Assembly: GCA_046719575.1 (NCBI GenBank)
Contig: JBDNCP010000002.1
Location: 2,689-66,688 of the forward strand
Length of the DNA: 64,000 nt
Reading direction: 5' to 3'
DNA from: Cyanobacteriota bacterium
GTDB taxonomy: Bacteria; Cyanobacteriota; Cyanobacteriia; Elainellales; Elainellaceae
Notes under the pieces: model-generated
The model's input: the letters and a program-made list of their open reading frames with translations, nothing else
Databases searched by the model: none
What the model was told of the DNA's origin: nothing
Program-made: the position numbers and the translations under genes
Shown here: in pieces, positions 55,779-64,000 of the stretch
How positions within the stretch are numbered: position 1 is the stretch's first letter
Layout: each line of letters opens with the position of its first letter

Positions 55779-57065
55779 TCACGGGCATCTGGGATAGAGG
55801 GACTGGGTGGGTGTGCGGCGGGGACTCAGCACCAGCACCGAATCCATGAACTGTTTCAACTCTGCCTGCCGGGTCGATGAACTCACGCCTGCTTGCAGAT
55901 GTCGCAGCACCAGTTGGATAAAGCGGCGACTGGCGGCGATCGCTGCACGGGTCGGCGTGCTGCTCAGGTTAATATAATCGCGTGGATCGCCGAAGAAAAT
56001 CCGGCCATTGGGCTGACGCATGGGCATAACCCGATGCTCCTGCGGATAAGATAACCCCCCCAGTCCAAAATAGCGGATAAACCGGATGGCTCCCGCGCCG
56101 CCGTTCTCGCGCTCTGTATGGGCCGGAGAATAGGAATCCTGAATCAGGTGCAGCGCCTCGCCCAGCCATTCAAAGGCAGCCTCGCGGGTGGGAGCAGTCA
56201 TGATCCGCTGATAGATGGCGACAAGCTGCTGCCGTGCTTCGGCGAGGGACTCTTCTAGTGGTTGGCACTTGTGGCGGCGCAGCATGTGGCGGCGCTGTTG
56301 CGATGGCTTGAAGTGGTTTGTGATTTTCTCCAGATCCACTCGGCGCACGCCCCGATTCATAGCCCCCAGCTCAGCAGGAGTAATGGGCAGCCCCTTGGCA
56401 GCCTCCCGATTCAGAGTTTCATGTCCCGGCGGAATGCGGCGCTTAATGTCTTCTACCACAAACGGATCGGCTTCGCGCTCGGCGGCCATTTCTTGCAGCG
56501 TTTCTAGATACTGCTGCTGAATTCGACGATCAAATGAGCGTGGCGCAGCCGATTCAAATTTGGATTCACGCTCGAATTCAAACTCAGATTCAAACTCAGA
56601 TTCAAATCCCTGTTCAAATTCCCATTCAAATTCCAATGCCAGTTCCCATTCTGCTTCGCGCTGTTTCGGTGGAGACACTTGCACAACCGGAGGCAGCTTG
56701 TCTCCCGGATTCAGCGTCGTCACCAGCACAATCCGGTTGCCGTTCTCGCCGCCGGGCCGATAGAAAATCGGCACCCCCCGCACCACCGTCACGCGGGTAT
56801 TGTAGCCAGGACGGGTTTGACGATAGTGTTTGGCGGCGCGAAACTCGCGGACGAAGGTGCGCGGATCGAACCGCATACCACCAGAGGCAACCCGTTGCAA
56901 AAAGCGCTGGGTGAAATGGATCGTGGGCAAAAAGCCCTGGCGCTTGAGATAGGCGGCAAACCGCTGAGCGATGCTGCGTCCGGCTTGCCCCCGGCGGCCA
57001 AATTCATCTTCAAACTCCGGAGCGGCGGAGCCGTTCTGGAGCGCTTTAGTTGAAAACGAGTTCAT
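55779..57065 (-). CDS. Two-domain hypothetical protein: small basic N-terminal domain, E/F-rich linker, Zn-PLC/S1-P1-like C-terminal domain
   Basis: TIHFTQRFLQR; linker EWELALEFEWEFEQGFESEFESEFEFERES; then GHETL, VD, H and LGEALHLIQDSYSPAH. The ORF is well supported; domain calls are from motifs only. Confidence 0.7.
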   Translation of the reverse strand: MNSFSTKALQNGSAAPEFEDEFGRRGQAGRSIAQRFAAYLKRQGFLPTIHFTQRFLQRVASGGMRFDPRTFVREFRAAKHYRQTRPGYNTRVTVVRGVPIFYRPGGENGNRIVLVTTLNPGDKLPPVVQVSPPKQREAEWELALEFEWEFEQGFESEFESEFEFERESKFESAAPRSFDRRIQQQYLETLQEMAAEREADPFVVEDIKRRIPPGHETLNREAAKGLPITPAELGAMNRGVRRVDLEKITNHFKPSQQRRHMLRRHKCQPLEESLAEARQQLVAIYQRIMTAPTREAAFEWLGEALHLIQDSYSPAHTERENGGAGAIRFIRYFGLGGLSYPQEHRVMPMRQPNGRIFFGDPRDYINLSSTPTRAAIAASRRFIQLVLRHLQAGVSSSTRQAELKQFMDSVLVLSPRRTPTQSLYPRCP

Positions 57066-57246: not shown

Positions 57247-58371
57247 TTACCCTTGCCCTGCTCTGAGCGGCGTGACGTTGCCGTTGCGGCTGGCGTTGAT
57301 GGGGACGACGCGCTGGGTGTGCCCGCGAAACGCAATGCCCAGCACCTCGGCACTGGTCAGCCATTCTTCGGACACGTCGGCGATTTCGCGCAGCAGGGCT
57401 TCAAATTCCGCCCGCGAGCTGTTGAGGATATACTTTTGCGCCAGCCAGCGAATGATTGATCGCCCGGAGGTGGCCATGCGGTGTCGCTGGGAGGCGTTGA
57501 CCTGCTTGTTGAAGTAGCGCAGCATCACTTCTTCGGCCACGTCCCAGGCGTTGTCTGCGCCAAACAGCTTGCGAACGTCCTCGGCTCCCAGAATGCGGAA
57601 GGCTTCGTCCAGCAGTTGCAGCGTCTCAATGCGAAATACGTTAACGTGTCCGTAAGAATTCCACTTTAAGTTATTTCGTAGATCCAGCCCAGCGCGGCGC
57701 ACGGTGGCGATGCTGCCAAAGCTGGGATCGTAGGCGCGTTCGCGGATCACGTCGGAAATCCGCTTGTCGCGCCAGAAGGCGGCGACGCTGTTGATAAACT
57801 GCGTGAACATGCCGTGGAATTGGGCGTTTGGCTTGGCGCTGGGCATGGGCGGCGTGGTGGTGTAGCCAAACACGCGGCGGTAGGTCTGCATTCGGTTGCG
57901 TTCGGCATAGCGGAGGATGCTGCGGCGATCAAACCGATATAGCCCGTAAGCGCCTTCACCCGTCGAAAGGCGCACTGCGCCCGCGTCAAACAGTTCTTGC
58001 AGCTTGCGGATGGCGCGGAAGATGCCGACGGTTTCCATCTGGTAGAGATAGTAAAGATCGGCGACGGATAAGATGCGATCGCTCGCTACTTGTTCGTCAT
58101 AGTCTTCCACACCTTGCGGTAGGCGCGTTTCGTCGATGCCTTTGGCAGCATCCTTACCCAAGCCGATCAAGTCGGCCAGTCCGCCGTCGGCAGGCACGGG
58201 CGCAGCGGCATTGGCGGCGATCGCCTGCGCCAACATATCTTCAATCCGCTGGGTCAGCGCGTCCGCAAGCTGGGGATTTTGAATCAACTGCGGGCCGAGT
58301 TGATCGACCAGCGTTTCTTTTAGCGCGGCAATGCGGTCGAGTAAACTTTGGTTTTCTCCGGTGGTGGTCAT
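57247..58371 (-). CDS. Hypothetical protein (374 aa), mostly helical
   Basis: Long ORF with GAGGAG RBS and host-like codon usage; no family I recognise. Confidence 0.85.
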   Translation of the reverse strand: MTTTGENQSLLDRIAALKETLVDQLGPQLIQNPQLADALTQRIEDMLAQAIAANAAAPVPADGGLADLIGLGKDAAKGIDETRLPQGVEDYDEQVASDRILSVADLYYLYQMETVGIFRAIRKLQELFDAGAVRLSTGEGAYGLYRFDRRSILRYAERNRMQTYRRVFGYTTTPPMPSAKPNAQFHGMFTQFINSVAAFWRDKRISDVIRERAYDPSFGSIATVRRAGLDLRNNLKWNSYGHVNVFRIETLQLLDEAFRILGAEDVRKLFGADNAWDVAEEVMLRYFNKQVNASQRHRMATSGRSIIRWLAQKYILNSSRAEFEALLREIADVSEEWLTSAEVLGIAFRGHTQRVVPINASRNGNVTPLRAGQG

Positions 58372-58531: not shown

Positions 58532-60241
58532 TCAATCGAGATCGTCGGGCGTGTCGCCAGAGGGCAATGTTACTTGCTCCGCCAGTTGGCGCACCTGATA
58601 AAGCTGGTAAGCCAAATCACGCAGCGCCCGAATCACGCCTTCGCGCCGGAACGCAGCATTGGGAATTGGGGTGTAGGTAGCAGCTTGGGTCAGCACCATG
58701 AGGCGATCGCTCGTCTCAGAAATCACCCGAATACCCAGCTTGCCGCCCGATTTTGCCAATATCGGCCCTTCCTCACTGGCGAATCGCCAGACCCAGTTCA
58801 GCAGCCCTTCCACGCTCATCGAATCTCCCAATTTAGCCGTTTCCGCAACTGGGTATCCAGTGCCATCCGGCAGTGGAAATGCAGGGCGGGGAACACCACA
58901 AGGCACTGCCATGTCCTTCTCTTCGGCCCTAGCGCGAGTGAAGTCGATGTAGACCGACAGCCGCTCCTCTGGCCCCAGGAAGAATAGCTCCATGATCCGG
59001 TAGACCTCCTGCACCGACTCGGCCACCACCGCCAGCGCCTGCGATAGCCGCACGAGCTGCGTGCCAATGTAGGCCCCAGCACTGGAATGCTGAGTATGCT
59101 TGTAGTCCACCCAACTCCGCCGCAGCGATTGCAAATAGTCTTTCAGCGTCAGGAAGTTGCTGTAGTTTTGCTCCTCTTCGACGGTGTTAATCTGTCCGCG
59201 TACCAGCCCAAAATATTCCGCCAGTTTCTTGAGCTGTCCGTCTGGGCGCTGATTGCTGCTGTCTAGGTCTTCGCCCAGCAACAGTTGGAACAAGTTATCC
59301 ACCCGCAAGATTCGCGGGCCGCCGCGTGCGCCCAGCTCTGCCAAAAGCTCCTGCATCTCGGTGCGAATGATAGAGCGGGTGGCTTCCATGTTTTCGCGGT
59401 CGGCGGATGGTTTCAGCGGGGTCAGTCCATTCAGCAACTGAATGCCGTCTTGAATTGCCGTTTTTGCCCGGTGATAGAGGCTGGCCTGCGCTCCGGTGAT
59501 GCCGCCGCCTAGGTCGGAGGCTCGGATGCTGACCGACTGCGGATTCCAGTCGTAGACCGTGCGCCCATCGACCTGGCGGGCGGTGAAGGTTTGCGTCAGC
59601 GTACTCACCAAAGTTTTGGGGTTATCCGTCCGCTGGGTATGCCCCAAAATGCTGCCCAGAGCGCTTTCCACTATGCCTTGCAGGTCGTCGCCAGTGGCAG
59701 GAGTGGAAACGGAAGTCATCCTGCCCGTCCGCTGGATTTGATCCAGACTGGGCAGCACATCTACGACTTGCAACTGTCCGGGTTGGTCTTTGGCGGGCTG
59801 AGCAGGAGGACGCTTGGATTGCTCAGGTTTCGACACTTCTAGCGCCACCAGTTCAATGGTGTAGGCCGTTGCCTGCCCGTCTCGCTTGACCGTATAGGGG
59901 GCAGGAACCTGTCCAACATCTTTAGCATCGGGCTTGTTGGGATCAGCCTTAGAAAACTGCTCTAGGGGAAAACTAGGCTGAACCTCCGTTTCTCCCAAAA
60001 ATTCACTGTCCCGAAAGAGTTTGAAATACACATCGGGTTCTGGTTCTGTTTCTCCCGGATCTTGGCGAAAGTCTTCCTTTGTAAAGGAGATTTCAAAGTA
60101 GCCCTGGGTATCTGTATGAGAAACACCGATGAGATCATCATATTGTCGATCTTTGTCGTGAAGTTCTACGCGGATGCGAGCTTCATATTGGCTTGGGTTT
60201 TTGATCACACGCCCGCGAAGCGTGTACCTGTCTCGTTTCAT
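58532..60241 (-). CDS. Hypothetical protein (569 aa) with an N-terminal transthyretin/prealbumin-like domain
   Basis: VELHDKD..YDDLIG..HTDTQGYFEISF...DF...E.EPDVYFKL pattern, then a P/Q linker and a helical body; AAGGAG RBS; starts 6 bp after the upstream stop. Confidence 0.8.
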   Translation of the reverse strand: MKRDRYTLRGRVIKNPSQYEARIRVELHDKDRQYDDLIGVSHTDTQGYFEISFTKEDFRQDPGETEPEPDVYFKLFRDSEFLGETEVQPSFPLEQFSKADPNKPDAKDVGQVPAPYTVKRDGQATAYTIELVALEVSKPEQSKRPPAQPAKDQPGQLQVVDVLPSLDQIQRTGRMTSVSTPATGDDLQGIVESALGSILGHTQRTDNPKTLVSTLTQTFTARQVDGRTVYDWNPQSVSIRASDLGGGITGAQASLYHRAKTAIQDGIQLLNGLTPLKPSADRENMEATRSIIRTEMQELLAELGARGGPRILRVDNLFQLLLGEDLDSSNQRPDGQLKKLAEYFGLVRGQINTVEEEQNYSNFLTLKDYLQSLRRSWVDYKHTQHSSAGAYIGTQLVRLSQALAVVAESVQEVYRIMELFFLGPEERLSVYIDFTRARAEEKDMAVPCGVPRPAFPLPDGTGYPVAETAKLGDSMSVEGLLNWVWRFASEEGPILAKSGGKLGIRVISETSDRLMVLTQAATYTPIPNAAFRREGVIRALRDLAYQLYQVRQLAEQVTLPSGDTPDDLD

Positions 60242-60247
60242 GCTGCG

Positions 60248-61624
60248 CTATCTCCTTGCTAAAGCTTTATAGAAGTTTTCAGTAATAAGTCCCGGCGCGG
60301 CCAGCCGTCGATCTAGCGCGTGGCGAGAGGCGCAGATCAGGAAGCGTTCGGGAATGATGCCCGGATCGTTGCCTTTGGCCAGCCGCTGCCCCGCTTCTTC
60401 GATGATTTGCTGGTGGTGCGGTTTGAAGCCGGTGACCTCTGCCAGCGATCGCCCGCCCAGTTCGCCATAAGGCGTGTAGCAAATCGTATCGACGACCAGC
60501 TTGTGGGCCCGATCGAAGGTTTGCAGCACGGCGGGTGGAATCGTACCCGCACGCGGATTGGGATACAGGCGCTTCCAGATGCGGTTGTAATAGTCCGCCA
60601 TTTGCGGAAAGCCCATCCGCCGCAATAGCTCCGTGCTGATGAACACGCGCAGGTAGGGCGTGGGATGGGGCGCACCGGGGTGAAAGAAGAGGGTGCTTTG
60701 GGGCGATCGCGAGGCAATGTCCATCAGCGAGGCGACGATGTAGGGGCCGCCCAGCAGCAGCCCCGACATATCCGCAAAGGTTTCGCTGTGCCATTTTGTC
60801 CACACGGCTGCCACATCCGGGGATAACCCCGCCTTCAGCAACCGATGGGCGATCGCCTTGGGCAGGGTTTGCCGCAGCCCCAGATCGGTCTGCAAGTTGT
60901 GGGCGACTTCGTGCAAAATCGCCCCCAGCGTCCAGGGATTCACCAGGCGGTGATAGGGCAGTTGGATCAGCGGAAACGGATTGAGCTGCTGGCTCAGCTT
61001 GGTCAGGGGAATGCCGCGCCGGAAGGTGGCGGGCGAAAACCCCGTCTTGACATAGGAGAAGGGCGGCGGAGCCGGGATCGACTTCGCCTTGCCCAGGCCC
61101 ATGTACACGTCCTGATAGCAGTCAAGCGCGATGCGATCGCACCCCAACAGCCAGGGCGCAAACTGGCTCTGCCGCTGCCCAAATAGCTCAAAGTAAAAGT
61201 CCCAGATTTGCTCGATCTTCCGCACCAGATCATGAGCCTGATCTTTGCGGGCGATCATCTGTTGCAGATGAGCCGTAGCGGGCTGGGCGATCGCCGCCTG
61301 AGTGCTGCCAGACACGGTTTTGGAGACACCCTGGAGGTGCGATCGCAATCGAGCAATAAGCTGGTTTACCGCGTCGATATGGGCATCGCTGGGGCTGGCC
61401 GCATCGGAGCCAAACTCACCCTGCCGGAAGGGGCGCAGCGCCGCTACATGGCGTGCCACGTTAATCGCCTGCGCCCGCAGCCAGGGGTCGAGGTTGGGCG
61501 GCTCCACAAAGCGGGCGATCGCCTGAGGCTCAGGCATGGTTTCCTGATATAGCTCGGCAAGCGCTAGCCGTGTTGCTCGATACGGGTCTATCCCGTTCTT
61601 TGATCCGTTCGTAAACCCATTCAT
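60248..61624 (-). CDS. Putative gluzincin-type zinc metallopeptidase (458 aa)
   Basis: ILHEVAH (aa 238-242), ETFAD about 40 aa later, then GGP and HP.PYLR; GGGAG RBS. Confidence 0.75.
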   Translation of the reverse strand: MNGFTNGSKNGIDPYRATRLALAELYQETMPEPQAIARFVEPPNLDPWLRAQAINVARHVAALRPFRQGEFGSDAASPSDAHIDAVNQLIARLRSHLQGVSKTVSGSTQAAIAQPATAHLQQMIARKDQAHDLVRKIEQIWDFYFELFGQRQSQFAPWLLGCDRIALDCYQDVYMGLGKAKSIPAPPPFSYVKTGFSPATFRRGIPLTKLSQQLNPFPLIQLPYHRLVNPWTLGAILHEVAHNLQTDLGLRQTLPKAIAHRLLKAGLSPDVAAVWTKWHSETFADMSGLLLGGPYIVASLMDIASRSPQSTLFFHPGAPHPTPYLRVFISTELLRRMGFPQMADYYNRIWKRLYPNPRAGTIPPAVLQTFDRAHKLVVDTICYTPYGELGGRSLAEVTGFKPHHQQIIEEAGQRLAKGNDPGIIPERFLICASRHALDRRLAAPGLITENFYKALARR

Positions 61625-61690: not shown

Positions 61691-62524
61691 CTATACGAAG
61701 GCCCGCTTGCGTGCGCTGCAACTGCACTGGCGGCTGTGAATCTGGCGCGATCGCTTCATCACAGCAGAGGCGCGGCGCGGATTGCCCAACACCTGCGCCA
61801 CATTGCCAGCCACCGTCCGCGCTGCTACGCGAGCGTTTACGGGCTGTCCTTTAGCGACGCGCTGCGCCAGGGTTGCCATGCTGCTGCGGGCGATCGTGGG
61901 GAAGGTGCGAACCAGCGGACGGGTCTGAGGGTTTTGGAGCAGCGCCCGACCGGCCTGAGCCAGAGGACGAATAACCTGGGGAACCACGCGAGAGATGACG
62001 GGTGCGGCTGCGCTGAGGCCCCGCGCCACCATTGGAATCAATGCGCCAATGAAGGCTTCGGCTTCGGCTTCGCTCTGGCTGTTGGCCGCCATGTGGGCCA
62101 GATGCTCAGCCATCACCTCATACTCGCTGGCCGGCGCGGTTTCAAATTCGGGCAGCACTTCAGGATGCTGCTCATATTCATACTCAAACTCGCCATCGCC
62201 CCCAAAGGCGCTGCCCAATCCCCGCAGCAGATTGCCAATAAAGGGATCGCCTTCGTATTCGCCTTCCAGTTCAAACTCGTTCAGGGGTGTTTCATACTCC
62301 ATCTCAAATTCGCGCTGGCCCCGGCGGCGACGGCGACGACGAAATAGCCCGCCGATTGCTTGAATGGCCATCGGTGCAGCCGCTTTAAGAATAGGAGCTA
62401 GCAAGGGCAAAAACTCTTCGCTCTCGTATTCGTACTCGTATGCGCGATCGCTTTCACCCAGAACGGCTGATTCAAATTCTGATTCCAGTTCTCGATCCAG
62501 GGTTTCAAGTTCGTACTGATACAT
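61691..62524 (-). CDS. Acidic/basic block protein B (277 aa) with E/Y/F-rich spacers and amphipathic segments
   Basis: AAGGAG RBS. Contains EYESEEFLPLLAPILK, R7, EYEGDPFIG and SEAEAEAFIG. The C-terminal half aligns with the gene at 62606. Confidence 0.88.
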   Translation of the reverse strand: MYQYELETLDRELESEFESAVLGESDRAYEYEYESEEFLPLLAPILKAAAPMAIQAIGGLFRRRRRRRGQREFEMEYETPLNEFELEGEYEGDPFIGNLLRGLGSAFGGDGEFEYEYEQHPEVLPEFETAPASEYEVMAEHLAHMAANSQSEAEAEAFIGALIPMVARGLSAAAPVISRVVPQVIRPLAQAGRALLQNPQTRPLVRTFPTIARSSMATLAQRVAKGQPVNARVAARTVAGNVAQVLGNPRRASAVMKRSRQIHSRQCSCSARKRAFV

Positions 62525-62605
62525 GAGTTAGGGTCTCCTTTTGCAGTGATGTTTGGTTGAAAGTCAAAAGTTGAAAATCGAAAATAGAACAAGACTCCAG
62601 TGCGA

Positions 62606-63481
62606 CTAGCCCCGTACTTTCTTGCGGGCAACTGGAGCAGGTTGGTTCACTTTCTGCGCGACTTTGGCAGAATTGGCGACAATTCGAGCAGCGGTCATGG
62701 GATTTTTGAGCGCTTTGCGGGTTTGGGCGGCCATCACCTGAGCCACGACCGGGCGGGTAATTGGCTTGCCCTGCGCGGCTTTCTGAGTCAACACTTGCCC
62801 CGTCCGCATAGCGACCGTCGGCAAAATTCGCACCAGCGGTCGAGTCGTCGGGTTTTGGCGTAGCCCCCGCGTCAGTTGGGCGCTGGCCTTAACGATCGCC
62901 GGAATTTGCTTTTGCACCGCAGCCGCTTTGGTCGGCAACACGCGAGTCACAGCAGCCCCCGCAAAGGCCTCGGCTTCGGCTTCGTTTTGGGCTTTGGCAG
63001 CAGCGCCGGCCAGCGCTTCGGCAACGGCTTCCATCTGCGGCGTGGCGACAGACTCAAACTCGCCCGCCCATTCCCCTTCAAACTCCATCTGTCCGGCCGT
63101 TTCATATTCAAATTCGTACTCGCTCTCGCGCATCATCTGTCCCAGCGCTGCGCCAAGCTGTGGCCCGCCAATGGCATTGCCGATCAGACGAGTGGCATGG
63201 GGAATCACTTTCGGTAGGATGGGTTTGAGCCGCCCAGCAAGACGGCGCACCGTACTCAAAAAGGCTTCACTTTCGTATTCGCCCTCATACTCACTTTCAT
63301 ATTCGCCTTCGTATTCACCTTCGCCCAGTCCGAGGGCATTCATTGCGCCGCCGATGAGTCCACCCAAGAATTCTTCGCCTTCGTATTCATGCTGAACTTC
63401 GTATTCATTTTGCAGGTCATATTCAAATTCGCTTTCAAACTCATTCGTGAGTTCCTGTTGCAGAGTTTCACCGTCCAACAT
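62606..63481 (-). CDS. Acidic/basic block protein A (291 aa), paralogue of the gene at 61691
   Basis: GGAG RBS. Contains EYEGEEFLGG, EYESEAFLST and NEAEAEAFAG. Shares QNP.TRPLVR..PT...G.P...NP with the paralogue. Confidence 0.88.
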   Translation of the reverse strand: MLDGETLQQELTNEFESEFEYDLQNEYEVQHEYEGEEFLGGLIGGAMNALGLGEGEYEGEYESEYEGEYESEAFLSTVRRLAGRLKPILPKVIPHATRLIGNAIGGPQLGAALGQMMRESEYEFEYETAGQMEFEGEWAGEFESVATPQMEAVAEALAGAAAKAQNEAEAEAFAGAAVTRVLPTKAAAVQKQIPAIVKASAQLTRGLRQNPTTRPLVRILPTVAMRTGQVLTQKAAQGKPITRPVVAQVMAAQTRKALKNPMTAARIVANSAKVAQKVNQPAPVARKKVRG

Positions 63482-63866: not shown

Positions 63867-64000
63867 ATGATTGATACCCAGAAAAGCAATAAACATGATT
63901 CAGATTCCTTTGATCTGAATCGACTTGAGCGGGACGTATTGACTCGCGTCCTCAGCCAGACAGCCGTATTTTGGAAGCCCATCAAGGTCTTTCAGGACGC
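63867..64000 (+). CDS. 5' end of an ORF divergent from the cluster, truncated by the window edge
   Basis: MIDTQKSNKHDSDSFDLNRLERDVLTRVLSQTAVFWKPIKVFQD is open to the window end. Confidence 0.45.
   Translation, partial: MIDTQKSNKHDSDSFDLNRLERDVLTRVLSQTAVFWKPIKVFQD

What the first reader, a model, noticed from the sequence alone, without database searches (positions are those of the whole stretch)
61691..62965. Paralogous ~120-aa C-terminal domains with no acidic residues
Seen: from the last EAEAEAF motif to the end, protein A (aa 173-291) and protein B (aa 158-277) contain no Asp or Glu, about 20 Arg/Lys each and very few aromatics. They align well (LRQNPTTRPLVRILPTVA vs LLQNPQTRPLVRTFPTIA; AQGKPITRPVV vs AKGQPVNARVA; ALKNP vs VLGNP). 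Their N-terminal halves are highly acidic and rich in Tyr/Phe. Inference: this charge-block layout could give intramolecular autoinhibition of a membrane- or nucleic-acid-binding helical domain, or drive coacervation into a condensate or coat.
Basis: partly seen in the sequence, partly recalled or inferred. Interest (0 to 1): 0.7.

Follow-up and report, generated by a model that had tools for sequence, protein, structure and literature searches.

The report
Acid-tagged basic helical protein pair
Two neighbouring genes encode an ancient pair of proteins with a strongly positively charged helical core of unknown fold, interrupted by floppy glutamate/aromatic stretches; they head a widespread bacterial operon that no database annotates and that is probably a switchable toxin or effector module.

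Summary
After the last EAEAEAF, protein A (118 aa) and protein B (119 aa) have no Asp or Glu, 22 and 20 Lys/Arg, and 0 and 2 aromatics. They are 35% identical (E 3e-34).

- **Family-wide trait:** a profile of the domain finds 869 representative protein clusters. All are unannotated.
- **Domain boundary:** AlphaFold2 (pTM 0.71) folds residues 70-120 and 147-280 of A into one ten-helix unit at pLDDT 90-98. The glutamate/aromatic tracts are disordered insertions.
- **No known relative:** there is no match in Pfam, NCBIfam, PADLOC, PHROGs, PDB or BFVD.
- **Ancient pair:** A-type and B-type form two clades, each spanning several phyla, always in the order A then B.
- **Operon:** they head a conserved operon with a GerE regulator, an invariant HExxH protein, two unknown core proteins and variable cargo. 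The same acidic tag marks the cargo.
- **Charges:** acidic and basic residue counts co-scale across the family (r 0.84), and 94% of members are net negative.

Best reading (about 35%): polycationic helical pro-proteins are masked in cis by their acidic tags. Tag removal would unmask them, probably to attack membranes. A scaffold, carrier or nucleic-acid role remains possible. Nothing functional has been tested.

The parts
62606..63481 (-). Gene A (291 aa), the A-type member of the pair and first gene of the operon.
   Evidence: ORF. It has 391 homologues at E<=1e-3, all 'hypothetical' and without a Pfam domain. The A-type clade has 99/96 support and always holds the first gene.
61691..62524 (-). 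Gene B (277 aa), the B-type member of the pair and second gene of the operon.
   Evidence: ORF. It is 35% identical to A. The B-type clade has 99/96 support.
62609..62962 (-). Acid-free basic C-terminal region of A (aa 174-291), helices 5b-10 of the predicted fold.
   Evidence: 0 D/E and 22 K/R. pLDDT is 94-98 up to about aa 280. A profile of this region finds 869 representative clusters.
61694..62050 (-). Acid-free basic C-terminal region of B (aa 159-277).
   Evidence: 0 D/E and 20 K/R. The domain profile matches it at E 6.9e-39 in the window's own genome.
62963..63043 (-). Helical segment of A (aa 147-173) that ends in EAEAEAF. It belongs to the fold and is not a spacer.
   Evidence: DSSP helices 148-163 and 167-181, with pLDDT 96-98.
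63128..63265 (-). Basic block 1 of A (aa 73-118). It is predicted to pack with the C-terminal region.
   Evidence: Helices 71-85, 89-105 and 107-119 with pLDDT 90-97. Nearly invariant columns in the family are F74, P87, L89, A93, A96, V100, A103, G106, P107 and G110.
63371..63472 (-). Acidic Glu/aromatic tract 1 of A (aa 4-37).
   Evidence: Mean pLDDT of the 10-residue blocks is 42-54. It is picked up by the tag scan.
63266..63325 (-). Acidic Glu/aromatic tract 2 of A (aa 53-72). It ends in the conserved junction E-S-E-A-F-L.
   Evidence: pLDDT is below 50. The junction motif comes from 287 junctions.
63044..63127 (-). Acidic Glu/aromatic tract 3 of A (aa 119-146), a disordered insertion between two parts of the fold.
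   Evidence: pLDDT is below 50 for aa 123-146, flanked by segments above 90.
63326..63370 (-). Short Gly-rich hydrophobic peptide of A (FLGGLIGGAMNALGL) between tracts 1 and 2.
   Evidence: Read from the sequence. Helix 42-49 is predicted at low confidence. The family consensus is FLGxxxRGxGxLLGxG.
62117..62521 (-). N-terminal part of B (aa 2-136): three acidic tracts (aa 2-37, 71-93, 109-136) alternating with a basic block (aa 38-70, containing RRRRRRR) and a Gly-rich peptide (aa 94-108).
   Evidence: Read from the sequence. Picked up by the tag scan.
61694..61729 (-). C-terminal tail of B carrying a CSC motif.
   Evidence: Read from the sequence. B-type relatives often end in CxC or Cys-rich tails.
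60248..61624 (-). Gene C (458 aa), the conserved HExxH protein and candidate tag-processing enzyme.
   Evidence: H238, E239, H242, E281 and D285 are invariant. It is 54-92% identical across phyla. The AF2 model has pTM 0.80 and is all-alpha, with no fold match.
58532..60241 (-). Gene D (569 aa): a variable N-terminal beta-sandwich-like head and a conserved C-terminal body.
   Evidence: Weak TTR-52 hit. The body is conserved in all loci. No family or PDB match.
57247..58371 (-). Gene E (374 aa), the most conserved core protein.
   Evidence: 55-78% identical across phyla. Some orthologues end in an EYEFEYE-type tag. No family or PDB match.
55779..57065 (-). Gene F (428 aa), a lineage-variable cargo protein that carries the same Glu/aromatic tag (aa ~137-172).
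   Evidence: Sequence. Picked up by the tag scans. Found only in the cyanobacterial loci.
63867..64000 (+). Start of the divergently transcribed GerE/LuxR-type regulator (140 aa). It runs past the window end.
   Evidence: Contig C112 66555-66977. Orthologues annotated GerE lie upstream in other phyla.

Best explanation
A and B are an obligate pair of cytoplasmic pro-proteins.

- **Architecture:** each has a compact, ~185-residue, strongly polycationic all-helical core of a new fold. It is made from two sequence blocks. Three disordered poly(Glu-aromatic) tracts, one N-terminal and one inserted in a loop, interrupt it.
- **Proposed masking (inferred):** the tracts over-compensate the positive charge of the core. 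This would keep the protein soluble and inert.
- **Proposed tag role (inferred):** the tracts also act as the operon's shared tag. The tag sits at module boundaries and termini of the variable enzyme cargo.
- **Proposed activation (inferred):** on a signal, the operon's conserved HExxH protein removes or cuts the tags. Outside cyanobacteria an M20 exopeptidase may help. The bare cationic helical cores would then bind a polyanionic target.
- **Proposed target (inferred):** the inner face of the cell membrane is the most likely target. This would give the signal-less cell-wall and lipid-degrading cargo access to the envelope.
- **Overall:** this would be a protease-gated lysis or killing module.

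Shown here: composition, paralogy, family breadth, predicted fold, tag distribution, synteny and charge co-scaling. Inferred: masking, cleavage, the target and the outcome.
For: - Composition and paralogy are confirmed.
- The family-wide acid-free basic region is seen in homologues and loci and in 869 representative clusters.
- AF2 of A gives pTM 0.71. The core is at pLDDT 90-98 and the tags are below 50.
- The core is net +18. The disordered part has 0 K/R and 31 D/E.
- K+R against D+E gives r 0.84, partial r 0.50. 94% of members are net negative.
- In this genome the Glu/aromatic tags rank highest in A, B and F. In 38 loci they occur almost only in A/B-type genes and in downstream cargo genes. 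They also end some E orthologues.
- The junction E-[GS]-E-[EA]-F-[FL]-G is conserved over 287 junctions.
- Gene C has invariant HExxH and ExxAD motifs.
- An M20 peptidase lies downstream in 16 loci.
- Cargo and fusions include GH25+PG_binding_1, Peptidase_M23, PG_binding_1+OmpA-like and an Aspzincin-like domain.
- No cluster protein has a transmembrane segment or an evident signal peptide. B has the most hydrophobic stretch.
- The distribution is patchy (1 of 79 cyanobacterial genera), yet the core genes are 55-65% identical across phyla. This fits a mobile conflict module.
Against: - No cleavage, toxicity or membrane binding has been observed.
- AF2 places EAEAEAF inside a confident helix, and the internal tag inside the fold. 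Cutting there would nick a folded domain rather than release a peptide.
- No helix of A is apolar (mean hydrophobicity about 0; max KD19 0.87). There is no colicin-like hairpin.
- Conserved positions in the domain are Pro, Gly and Thr at helix ends. This argues for a defined fold or partner rather than a simple lytic amphipath.
- Gene C gave no structural match to any peptidase. Its model lacks the beta-sheet of zincins, so its protease activity rests on motifs only.
- C-terminal tags on E orthologues cannot be linkers. They suggest a docking role.
Confidence: 0.35

Rival explanations
1. Scaffold or hub model. The polycationic A/B core is the receptor for the Glu/aromatic tags. A/B, probably as a heteromer, would gather tagged cargo and tagged E through charge-complementary, multivalent contacts. 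The result would be a complex, particle or condensate that D and E deploy. The HExxH protein would trim or release it.
For: - Tags are multivalent, with three per A/B. They also sit at the termini of cargo and of some E orthologues, where they can only be docking elements.
- The only strongly basic, acid-free surfaces in the operon are A and B.
- Acidic and basic counts co-scale.
- A and B are the first genes of the operon. This position is sometimes taken to indicate abundant products, which is my own general knowledge.
- Synthetic FEFEFEFE-type peptides co-assemble with cationic partners (papers listed, for example PMC5770463).
Against: - AF2 does not dock A's own tags on its core.
- A/B are net negative overall, so self-neutralised.
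- No oligomer prediction was possible.
- Conserved residues are structural rather than forming an obvious binding groove.
Confidence: 0.25
2. Carrier or leader model. The conserved tag-plus-helical module is a trafficking or recognition domain, like the N-terminal part of polymorphic toxins or a long RiPP leader. The payload would be the variable C-terminal extension: Cys-rich tails or enzyme domains. It would be released by the HExxH protein.
For: - B-type relatives often end in CxC or Cys-rich, knot-like tails, or are fused to PG_binding_1+OmpA-like or Aspzincin-like domains.
- A-type relatives carry a further tag plus an extra module after the basic region.
- The layout is a conserved N-terminal part with a hypervariable C-terminal end.
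Against: - In this window A ends right after the basic region, and B has only a 12-residue tail.
- Most family members have no extension.
- No NHLP, Nif11 or other leader model matched, and no modification enzyme or exporter was recognised.
- No cluster protein has a transmembrane segment.
Confidence: 0.15
3. Nucleic-acid binder. The acid-free, Arg/Lys-rich helical core binds DNA or RNA, for example to condense or block the nucleoid or phage DNA. The acidic tracts would act as an autoinhibitory nucleic-acid mimic, as the acidic tail of HMGB1 does.
For: - Total absence of acidic residues with 17-30 K/R per ~118 aa. A-type cores outside cyanobacteria are extremely Arg-rich.
- The system is cytoplasmic.
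- The positions of basic residues vary while the overall charge is kept.
Against: - No HTH, HU, histone, Lsr2 or other DNA-binding family or fold was detected.
- The associated cargo is mostly envelope-directed.
- There is no nucleic-acid-related gene in the core.
Confidence: 0.1
4. The composition has no special function. A and B would be ordinary structural proteins whose charge blocks carry no regulatory meaning.
For: No functional data exist. Low-complexity tracts can evolve neutrally.
Against: - The tag architecture, junction motif and acid-free core are conserved across at least six phyla and 869 representative clusters.
- The same tag is reused on unrelated cargo.
- The paralogue pair is ancient and its gene order is fixed.
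Confidence: 0.05

Closest known systems
Protease-gated bacterial gasdermin operons
   Same: In both, an accessory operon encodes a cell-killing protein held inactive by part of its own chain, next to a dedicated protease. Both have a patchy, horizontally spread distribution.
   Different: - The A/B core is all-alpha and has no Foldseek match, so it lacks the gasdermin fold.
- The masking element is a set of poly(Glu-aromatic) tracts, not a short C-terminal peptide.
- The putative protease is an HExxH protein of unknown fold, not a caspase-like or subtilase enzyme.
- Pore formation has not been shown.
Antimicrobial-peptide and toxin precursors with anionic pro-pieces (defensins, cathelicidins, frog dermaseptins, promelittin with EAEA-type spacers); recalled from general knowledge
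   Same: An acidic pro-region neutralises a cationic membrane-active part until proteolysis. Both have EAEA-like spacers and F-L/I starts after the spacer.
   Different: - The known precursors are eukaryotic, secreted through a signal peptide, and give mature peptides of 10-60 aa.
- Here there is no signal peptide.
- The cationic part is a confidently folded ~185-aa domain built from two blocks.
- The acidic part is strictly Glu/aromatic.
Polymorphic toxin systems with releasing peptidases
   Same: A conserved N-terminal module, variable C-terminal or neighbouring toxin and enzyme modules, and an associated peptidase.
   Different: There is no recognised secretion or trafficking domain, no immunity gene, and no match to any toxin-system family. 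The shared element is an acidic tag found on separate proteins.
Autoinhibited basic helical bundles, such as the vinculin tail (binds acidic lipids, masked by the head) and the HMGB1 acidic tail
   Same: A basic helical module that binds polyanions is masked intramolecularly.
   Different: Vinculin-tail chains appear only at noise level (E 2.5-4.7, TM about 0.15-0.20). There is no homology, and the context is bacterial and operon-encoded.
Designed charge-complementary co-assembling peptides (FEFEFEFE with RFRFR; CATCH tags)
   Same: Alternating Glu/aromatic strands that pair with cationic partners (papers listed).
   Different: These are synthetic materials. No natural tag system of this kind was found in the paper library.

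Membership tests
Any curated protein family (Pfam, NCBIfam, PADLOC, PHROGs), for A and B | A significant profile match at or above the curated cut-off. | tested here: not met
   Only sub-threshold noise was found: GASH at 15.8 bits against a cut-off of 27, and Adeno_PX at E 0.51. NCBIfam, PADLOC and PHROGs gave 0 hits. The 46 C-domains scanned one by one gave nothing consistent.
Any solved or viral predicted fold, for the A core | A Foldseek match with E<=0.001, or TM>0.5. | tested here: not met
   Best PDB hit E 1.8, TM<=0.24. Best BFVD hit E 0.27. The PDB sequence-profile search gave E>=0.32.
Colicin-type pore-forming domain | A ten-helix bundle enclosing an apolar helical hairpin. | tested here: not met
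   1col_A matches only at E 3.8, TM 0.15-0.20. No apolar hairpin: max KD19 is 0.87 in A, and 1.64 in B with an Arg inside the stretch. Mean hydrophobicity of the helices is about 0.
Holins | At least one transmembrane helix. | tested here: not met
   No 19-residue window reaches typical transmembrane hydrophobicity without a charged residue.
Gasdermin-protease systems | A gasdermin fold (twisted beta-sheet core) in the effector. | tested here: not met
   The model of A is entirely helical and no gasdermin appears among the hits.
Gasdermin-protease systems | Activation by cleavage by the neighbouring protease. | not testable with these tools
   This needs a biochemical cleavage assay.
Zincin / gluzincin metallopeptidase (gene C) | An HExxH motif plus a downstream third-ligand Glu. 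| tested here: met
   H238, E239, H242, E281 and D285 are invariant in 46 sequences from at least five phyla.
Zincin / gluzincin metallopeptidase (gene C) | The zincin fold: an active-site helix beneath a substrate-binding beta-sheet, with structural similarity to known peptidases. | tested here: inconclusive
   The AF2 model (pTM 0.80) is all-alpha. The very conserved aa 186-225, just upstream of HExxH, are unmodelled (pLDDT<50). No peptidase scores better than E 5 in Foldseek. Pfam Zn_peptidase matched one member at E 0.2.
Anionic-propiece antimicrobial-peptide precursors | A signal peptide and a short (<60 aa) cationic mature peptide. | tested here: not met
   No signal peptide is evident from the N-terminal sequence. 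The cationic blocks fold together into a ~185-aa domain.
Cargo of a contractile injection system (eCIS / T6SS) | Sheath and tube genes present in the genome or locus. | tested here: not met
   PF04984 is absent from the 99%-complete own genome. A sheath gene is adjacent in only 1 of the 4 loci whose gene calls and Pfam hits were listed. The Streptomyces effectors Sco4256-58 are a different kind of protein: single transmembrane domain, with a ricin-type domain in Sco4257/58.
RiPP precursors with long leaders (NHLP / Nif11) | A leader-family model match, plus a modification enzyme or exporter in the cluster. | tested here: not met
   NCBIfam and Pfam gave no match for A or B. No recognisable maturase or transporter is present in the operon.
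Nucleoid-associated or histone-like proteins | A known DNA-binding fold or family. | tested here: not met
   No family or fold match was found. Actual DNA binding cannot be tested here.

The most novel reading that the evidence does not exclude
The A/B pair, the Glu/aromatic tag and the all-alpha HExxH protein would define a previously unrecognised, ATP-independent type of bacterial effector system, spread across phyla.

- Polycationic helical proteins of a new fold are kept inert by their own poly(Glu-aromatic) tracts.
- The same tract serves as a universal address or cleavage tag on interchangeable wall-, lipid- and protein-degrading enzymes.
- A dedicated new metallopeptidase strips the tags. 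This triggers membrane attack and lysis, either as suicide defence or as bacteriocin-like release.
Probability: 0.3. Interest if true: 0.85.

Novelty: categorically new. Interest (0 to 1): 0.66.

Why it matters
- **Breadth:** the domain belongs to a family of at least 869 representative clusters (50% identity). The neighbouring HExxH protein has at least 3071 clusters. They occur in Cyanobacteriota, Acidobacteriota, Actinomycetota, Chloroflexota, Planctomycetota and a Bacillota-labelled MAG.
- **No annotation:** none of its core proteins has a name, a Pfam family or a known fold.
- **If the gated-toxin reading is right:** this would be a new way for bacteria to store and release a membrane-active protein together with enzyme cargo. 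It would also provide a natural, portable acidic tag and a matching processing enzyme.
- **If the scaffold reading is right:** it would be a natural example of charge-complementary tag assembly.
- **Testability:** either way, the pair is a clean, small and testable entry point to an unannotated system.

Tried and rejected
- **Database searches.** Pfam, NCBIfam, PADLOC and PHROGs scans of all six operon proteins, and of alignments of C, D, E and the A/B domain, gave nothing significant.
- **PDB sequence-profile searches.** Profiles of C, E, D and the A/B domain gave nothing significant.
- **Link to contractile injection systems.** One Streptomyces locus has a sheath gene about 2.4 kb beyond the cluster. 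However, the published CIS effectors Sco4256-58 are unrelated transmembrane proteins (ricin-type domains in Sco4257/58), and this genome has no sheath gene. Rejected.
- **'Multi-core antimicrobial-peptide precursor' reading.** Weakened, because basic block 1 and the C-terminal region fold together at pLDDT above 90, and EAEAEAF lies inside a helix. The short Gly-rich peptides between tags remain possible released products.
- **Classical holin or colicin-like pore.** Rejected on hydrophobicity.
- **Literature.** Searches for the motifs and for descriptive terms found only synthetic-peptide papers.
- **Promoter and terminator scan.** It showed nothing above shuffled expectation.
Full report
**1. 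What is there.**
On the minus strand lie two ORFs: A (62606..63481, 291 aa) and B (61691..62524, 277 aa).
- After the last EAEAEAF, A has 118 residues with no Asp or Glu, 22 Lys/Arg and no aromatic residue.
- B has 119 residues with no Asp or Glu, 20 Lys/Arg and two Phe.
- The parts before that motif hold 39 and 38 acidic residues, and 18 and 20 aromatic residues.
- BLASTP of A against B gives 35% identity, E 3e-34, and includes the quoted motifs.

**2. Is it more than chance?**
- D+E makes up 10.8% of the genome's long ORFs.
- Acid-free runs of at least 100 aa occur in 60 of 2893 ORFs. Most of these are membrane-like, with 3-7% K/R. Only about six, A and B among them, have at least 15% K/R.
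- When ORFs are ranked by how well they split into one strongly negative and one strongly positive block, A and B are 4th and 6th of 3842. They are the shortest proteins in the top twelve listed.
- The property is inherited. Of 120 homologues, most have a C-terminal acid-free run of 100-145 residues with 23-34 K/R and 0-2 aromatics. The 64 C-regions taken from 38 loci usually have 0-4 acidic residues.

**3. The family.**
- A has 391 homologues at E<=1e-3 among the candidates scored. All are 'hypothetical' and none has a Pfam domain.
- A 46-sequence profile of the C-region (alignment A4) was searched against 1.84 billion representative proteins. It found 869 clusters at E<=1e-3 and 643 at E<=1e-10. 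Nearly all are 200-400 aa with the region near the C-terminus.
- The window's own genome has only A and B.
- A sample of 151 genomes of the same phylum has the region in one genus of 79. The distribution is therefore patchy.
- A maximum-likelihood tree of the C-regions splits into two clades with 99/96 support. One holds the first gene of each locus (A-type) and the other the second gene (B-type). Each spans Cyanobacteriota, Acidobacteriota and Actinomycetota, plus the loci (Streptomyces, Caldilineaceae, Pyrinomonadaceae) and a Bacillota-labelled MAG.
- The pair is therefore ancient and its order is fixed. Of 32 loci with enough upstream sequence, 28 have at least two such genes.

**4. Structure.**
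AlphaFold2 with an 89-sequence alignment gives mean pLDDT 77.9 and pTM 0.71.
- Residues 70-120 and 147-280 have pLDDT 90-98 and form ten helices.
- Residues 18-69 and 123-146, the Glu/aromatic tracts, are below 50.
- The motif EAEAEAF is the N-terminal part of helix 167-181. That fold also uses the basic block at aa 73-118, which is as conserved as the tail (nearly invariant F74, P87, L89, A93, A96, V100, A103, G106, P107, G110).
- The confidently folded part (185 aa) carries 26 K/R and 8 D/E. The disordered part (95 aa) carries 0 K/R, 31 D/E and 16 aromatics.
- Foldseek finds nothing: best PDB hit E 1.8 with TM<=0.24, best BFVD hit E 0.27. Vinculin-tail and colicin A chains appear only at noise level.
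- The helices are moderately amphipathic (muH 0.2-0.6) and not apolar (mean hydrophobicity about 0).
- The positions conserved in the domain are mostly Pro, Gly and Thr at helix ends, plus the T-R-P motif. Basic positions keep their charge rather than their identity.

**5. The tags.**
- The acidic tracts alternate Glu with Tyr, Phe or Trp. They end in a conserved junction, E-[GS]-E-[EA]-F-[FL]-G-x-[IL], seen over 287 junctions.
- In this genome the top-scoring hits for such tracts are A, B and the last gene of the operon, F.
- In 38 loci the tracts occur almost only in A/B-type genes and in variable genes downstream of the core.
- They also form the extreme C-terminus of some orthologues of core protein E.
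- K+R and D+E counts correlate across 120 homologues (r 0.84; 0.50 after removing length). 94% of members are net negative, with a median of -11.

**6. Genomic setting.**
- The operon in this window reads A, B, C (458 aa), D (569 aa), E (374 aa), F (428 aa). A GerE/LuxR-type regulator is transcribed divergently, upstream of A.
- The same order is found in Streptomyces, Caldilineaceae and Pyrinomonadaceae, and in 34 further genomes.
- C and E are 54-65% identical to the orthologues in other phyla.
- Outside cyanobacteria, a ~185-aa helical protein lies between C and D (19 loci). An M20 peptidase lies downstream in 16 loci.
- Cargo and fusions include GH25+PG_binding_1 and Peptidase_M23 genes with short N-terminal acidic tags. 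There is also a family member fused to PG_binding_1 plus an OmpA-like region (its short contig gives no gene context), and a B-type protein fused to an Aspzincin-like domain that sits in the B position of its locus.
- No protein of the operon has a transmembrane segment or an evident signal peptide.
- None matches PADLOC or PHROGs.

**7. The putative protease.**
- C keeps H238, E239, H242, E281 and D285 invariant in 46 sequences. This is the HExxH...ExxAD arrangement of gluzincins, and I recall that M48-type enzymes use it.
- Its AlphaFold2 model (pTM 0.80) is all-alpha. The most conserved stretch, aa 186-225, is left unmodelled, and the model matches no peptidase or anything else in the PDB.
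- Enzyme activity is therefore inferred from motifs only.

**8. Interpretation.**
The data fit a protein whose polycationic folded core is accompanied by an excess of flexible negative charge in cis. They also fit an operon that uses the same acidic tract as a shared label. I rank four readings.
- **Masked membrane-active pro-protein, about 35%.** The tags mask the core until they are removed by C, with M20 help in other phyla. The core then attacks the membrane from inside and lets signal-less envelope-degrading cargo reach its substrate.
- **Tag receptor or scaffold, about 25%.** The core is the receptor that assembles tagged proteins.
- **Carrier or leader, about 15%.** The module carries variable C-terminal payloads.
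- **Nucleic-acid binder, about 10%.**

They remain open, and neither is shown.

Three points count against a simple lytic peptide:
- the core is a confident globular fold;
- EAEAEAF is inside a helix;
- no helix is apolar.

A link to contractile injection systems was considered and rejected.

**9. Novelty.**
No curated family, solved structure, viral predicted structure or paper in the library matches A, B or the core proteins. Earlier notes of this scan had met the same operon in other genomes and reached a similar 'tagged effector operon' idea. I treated these as leads only.

- the discontinuous fold;
- the size of the family;
- the ancient A/B split;
- the charge co-scaling;
- the junction motif;
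- the failure of C to match any peptidase fold.

Noticed in passing
window 61694-61729 (B tail); relatives P0145, P0200, P0257, P0205, P0157: B ends in QCSCSARKRAFV. Many B-type relatives end in CxC, CCxxC or CGCCCC motifs, or in a ~45-residue Cys-rich tail that looks like a knot (C..GC.K..DPDTG...C....C.G.C....W.CCC). This suggests metal binding or a disulfide-rich payload.
   Followed up: partly
P0173 (L041); P0179 (L042:1737-3212): The A/B module occurs fused to PG_binding_1 plus an OmpA-like region, and to an Aspzincin_M35-like domain. In L042 the fusion protein sits in the B position, between an A-type gene and a gene C orthologue.
   Followed up: partly
L001:18370-19869, L023:14795-16189 and 14 further loci: An M20-family peptidase gene follows the core operon in 16 non-cyanobacterial loci. 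It is absent from the cyanobacterial version, including this window. An amidohydrolase-like gene recurs in 7 loci.
   Followed up: partly
L002:13295-13846, L004:13648-14205, L022:7428-7985 (19 loci): A ~185-aa helical protein ending in NIGQQ...GVT lies between genes C and D outside cyanobacteria. In this window C and D are only 6 bp apart and this gene is missing.
   Followed up: partly
Orthologues of window 57247-58371 (L002, L022, L023, L026, L027, L032): Several orthologues of core protein E end in EYEFEAEYER, EYEFEYELEV, EFEMEY or EFELEEEFEV. The tag can therefore sit at an extreme C-terminus, where it cannot be a linker.
   Followed up: partly
window 60950-61069 (gene C, aa 186-225): The most conserved stretch of the HExxH protein (PAPPPFSY.RTGFSPATFRRGIPL..L...NPFPLIQLPYHR) lies just upstream of HExxH. 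It is the part AlphaFold2 cannot place (pLDDT<50). It could be a substrate-binding or plug element.
   Followed up: no
window 63326-63370 (A aa 38-52) and 62201-62245 (B aa 94-108): Short Gly-rich hydrophobic peptides with GxxxG spacing (FLGGLIGGAMNALGL; PFIGNLLRGLGSAFG) are each bracketed by two acidic tracts. They could be released as small glycine-zipper-like peptides if the tags are cut.
   Followed up: no
L009:13834-14499, L018:7183-8259, L020:16540-18036, L022:12402-13256 and others: A recurring cargo family with a conserved N-terminal 'DGYTLRL...LKQTGL' domain, followed by Glu/aromatic tags, appears in 9 loci. It has no Pfam match.
   Followed up: partly
L001:20666-20954: In Streptomyces sp. 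CA-249302 a phage-sheath gene starts about 2.4 kb beyond the operon. The window's own genome has no sheath gene and the other loci whose gene calls were listed show none nearby, so this is probably coincidence.
   Followed up: yes
Genome contig C42:11633-12211 (-): Another ORF of this genome has a DYEYEYDEMDGQEYQ tract. It is the only tag-like hit outside the operon with E/Y alternation, and was not examined further.
   Followed up: no
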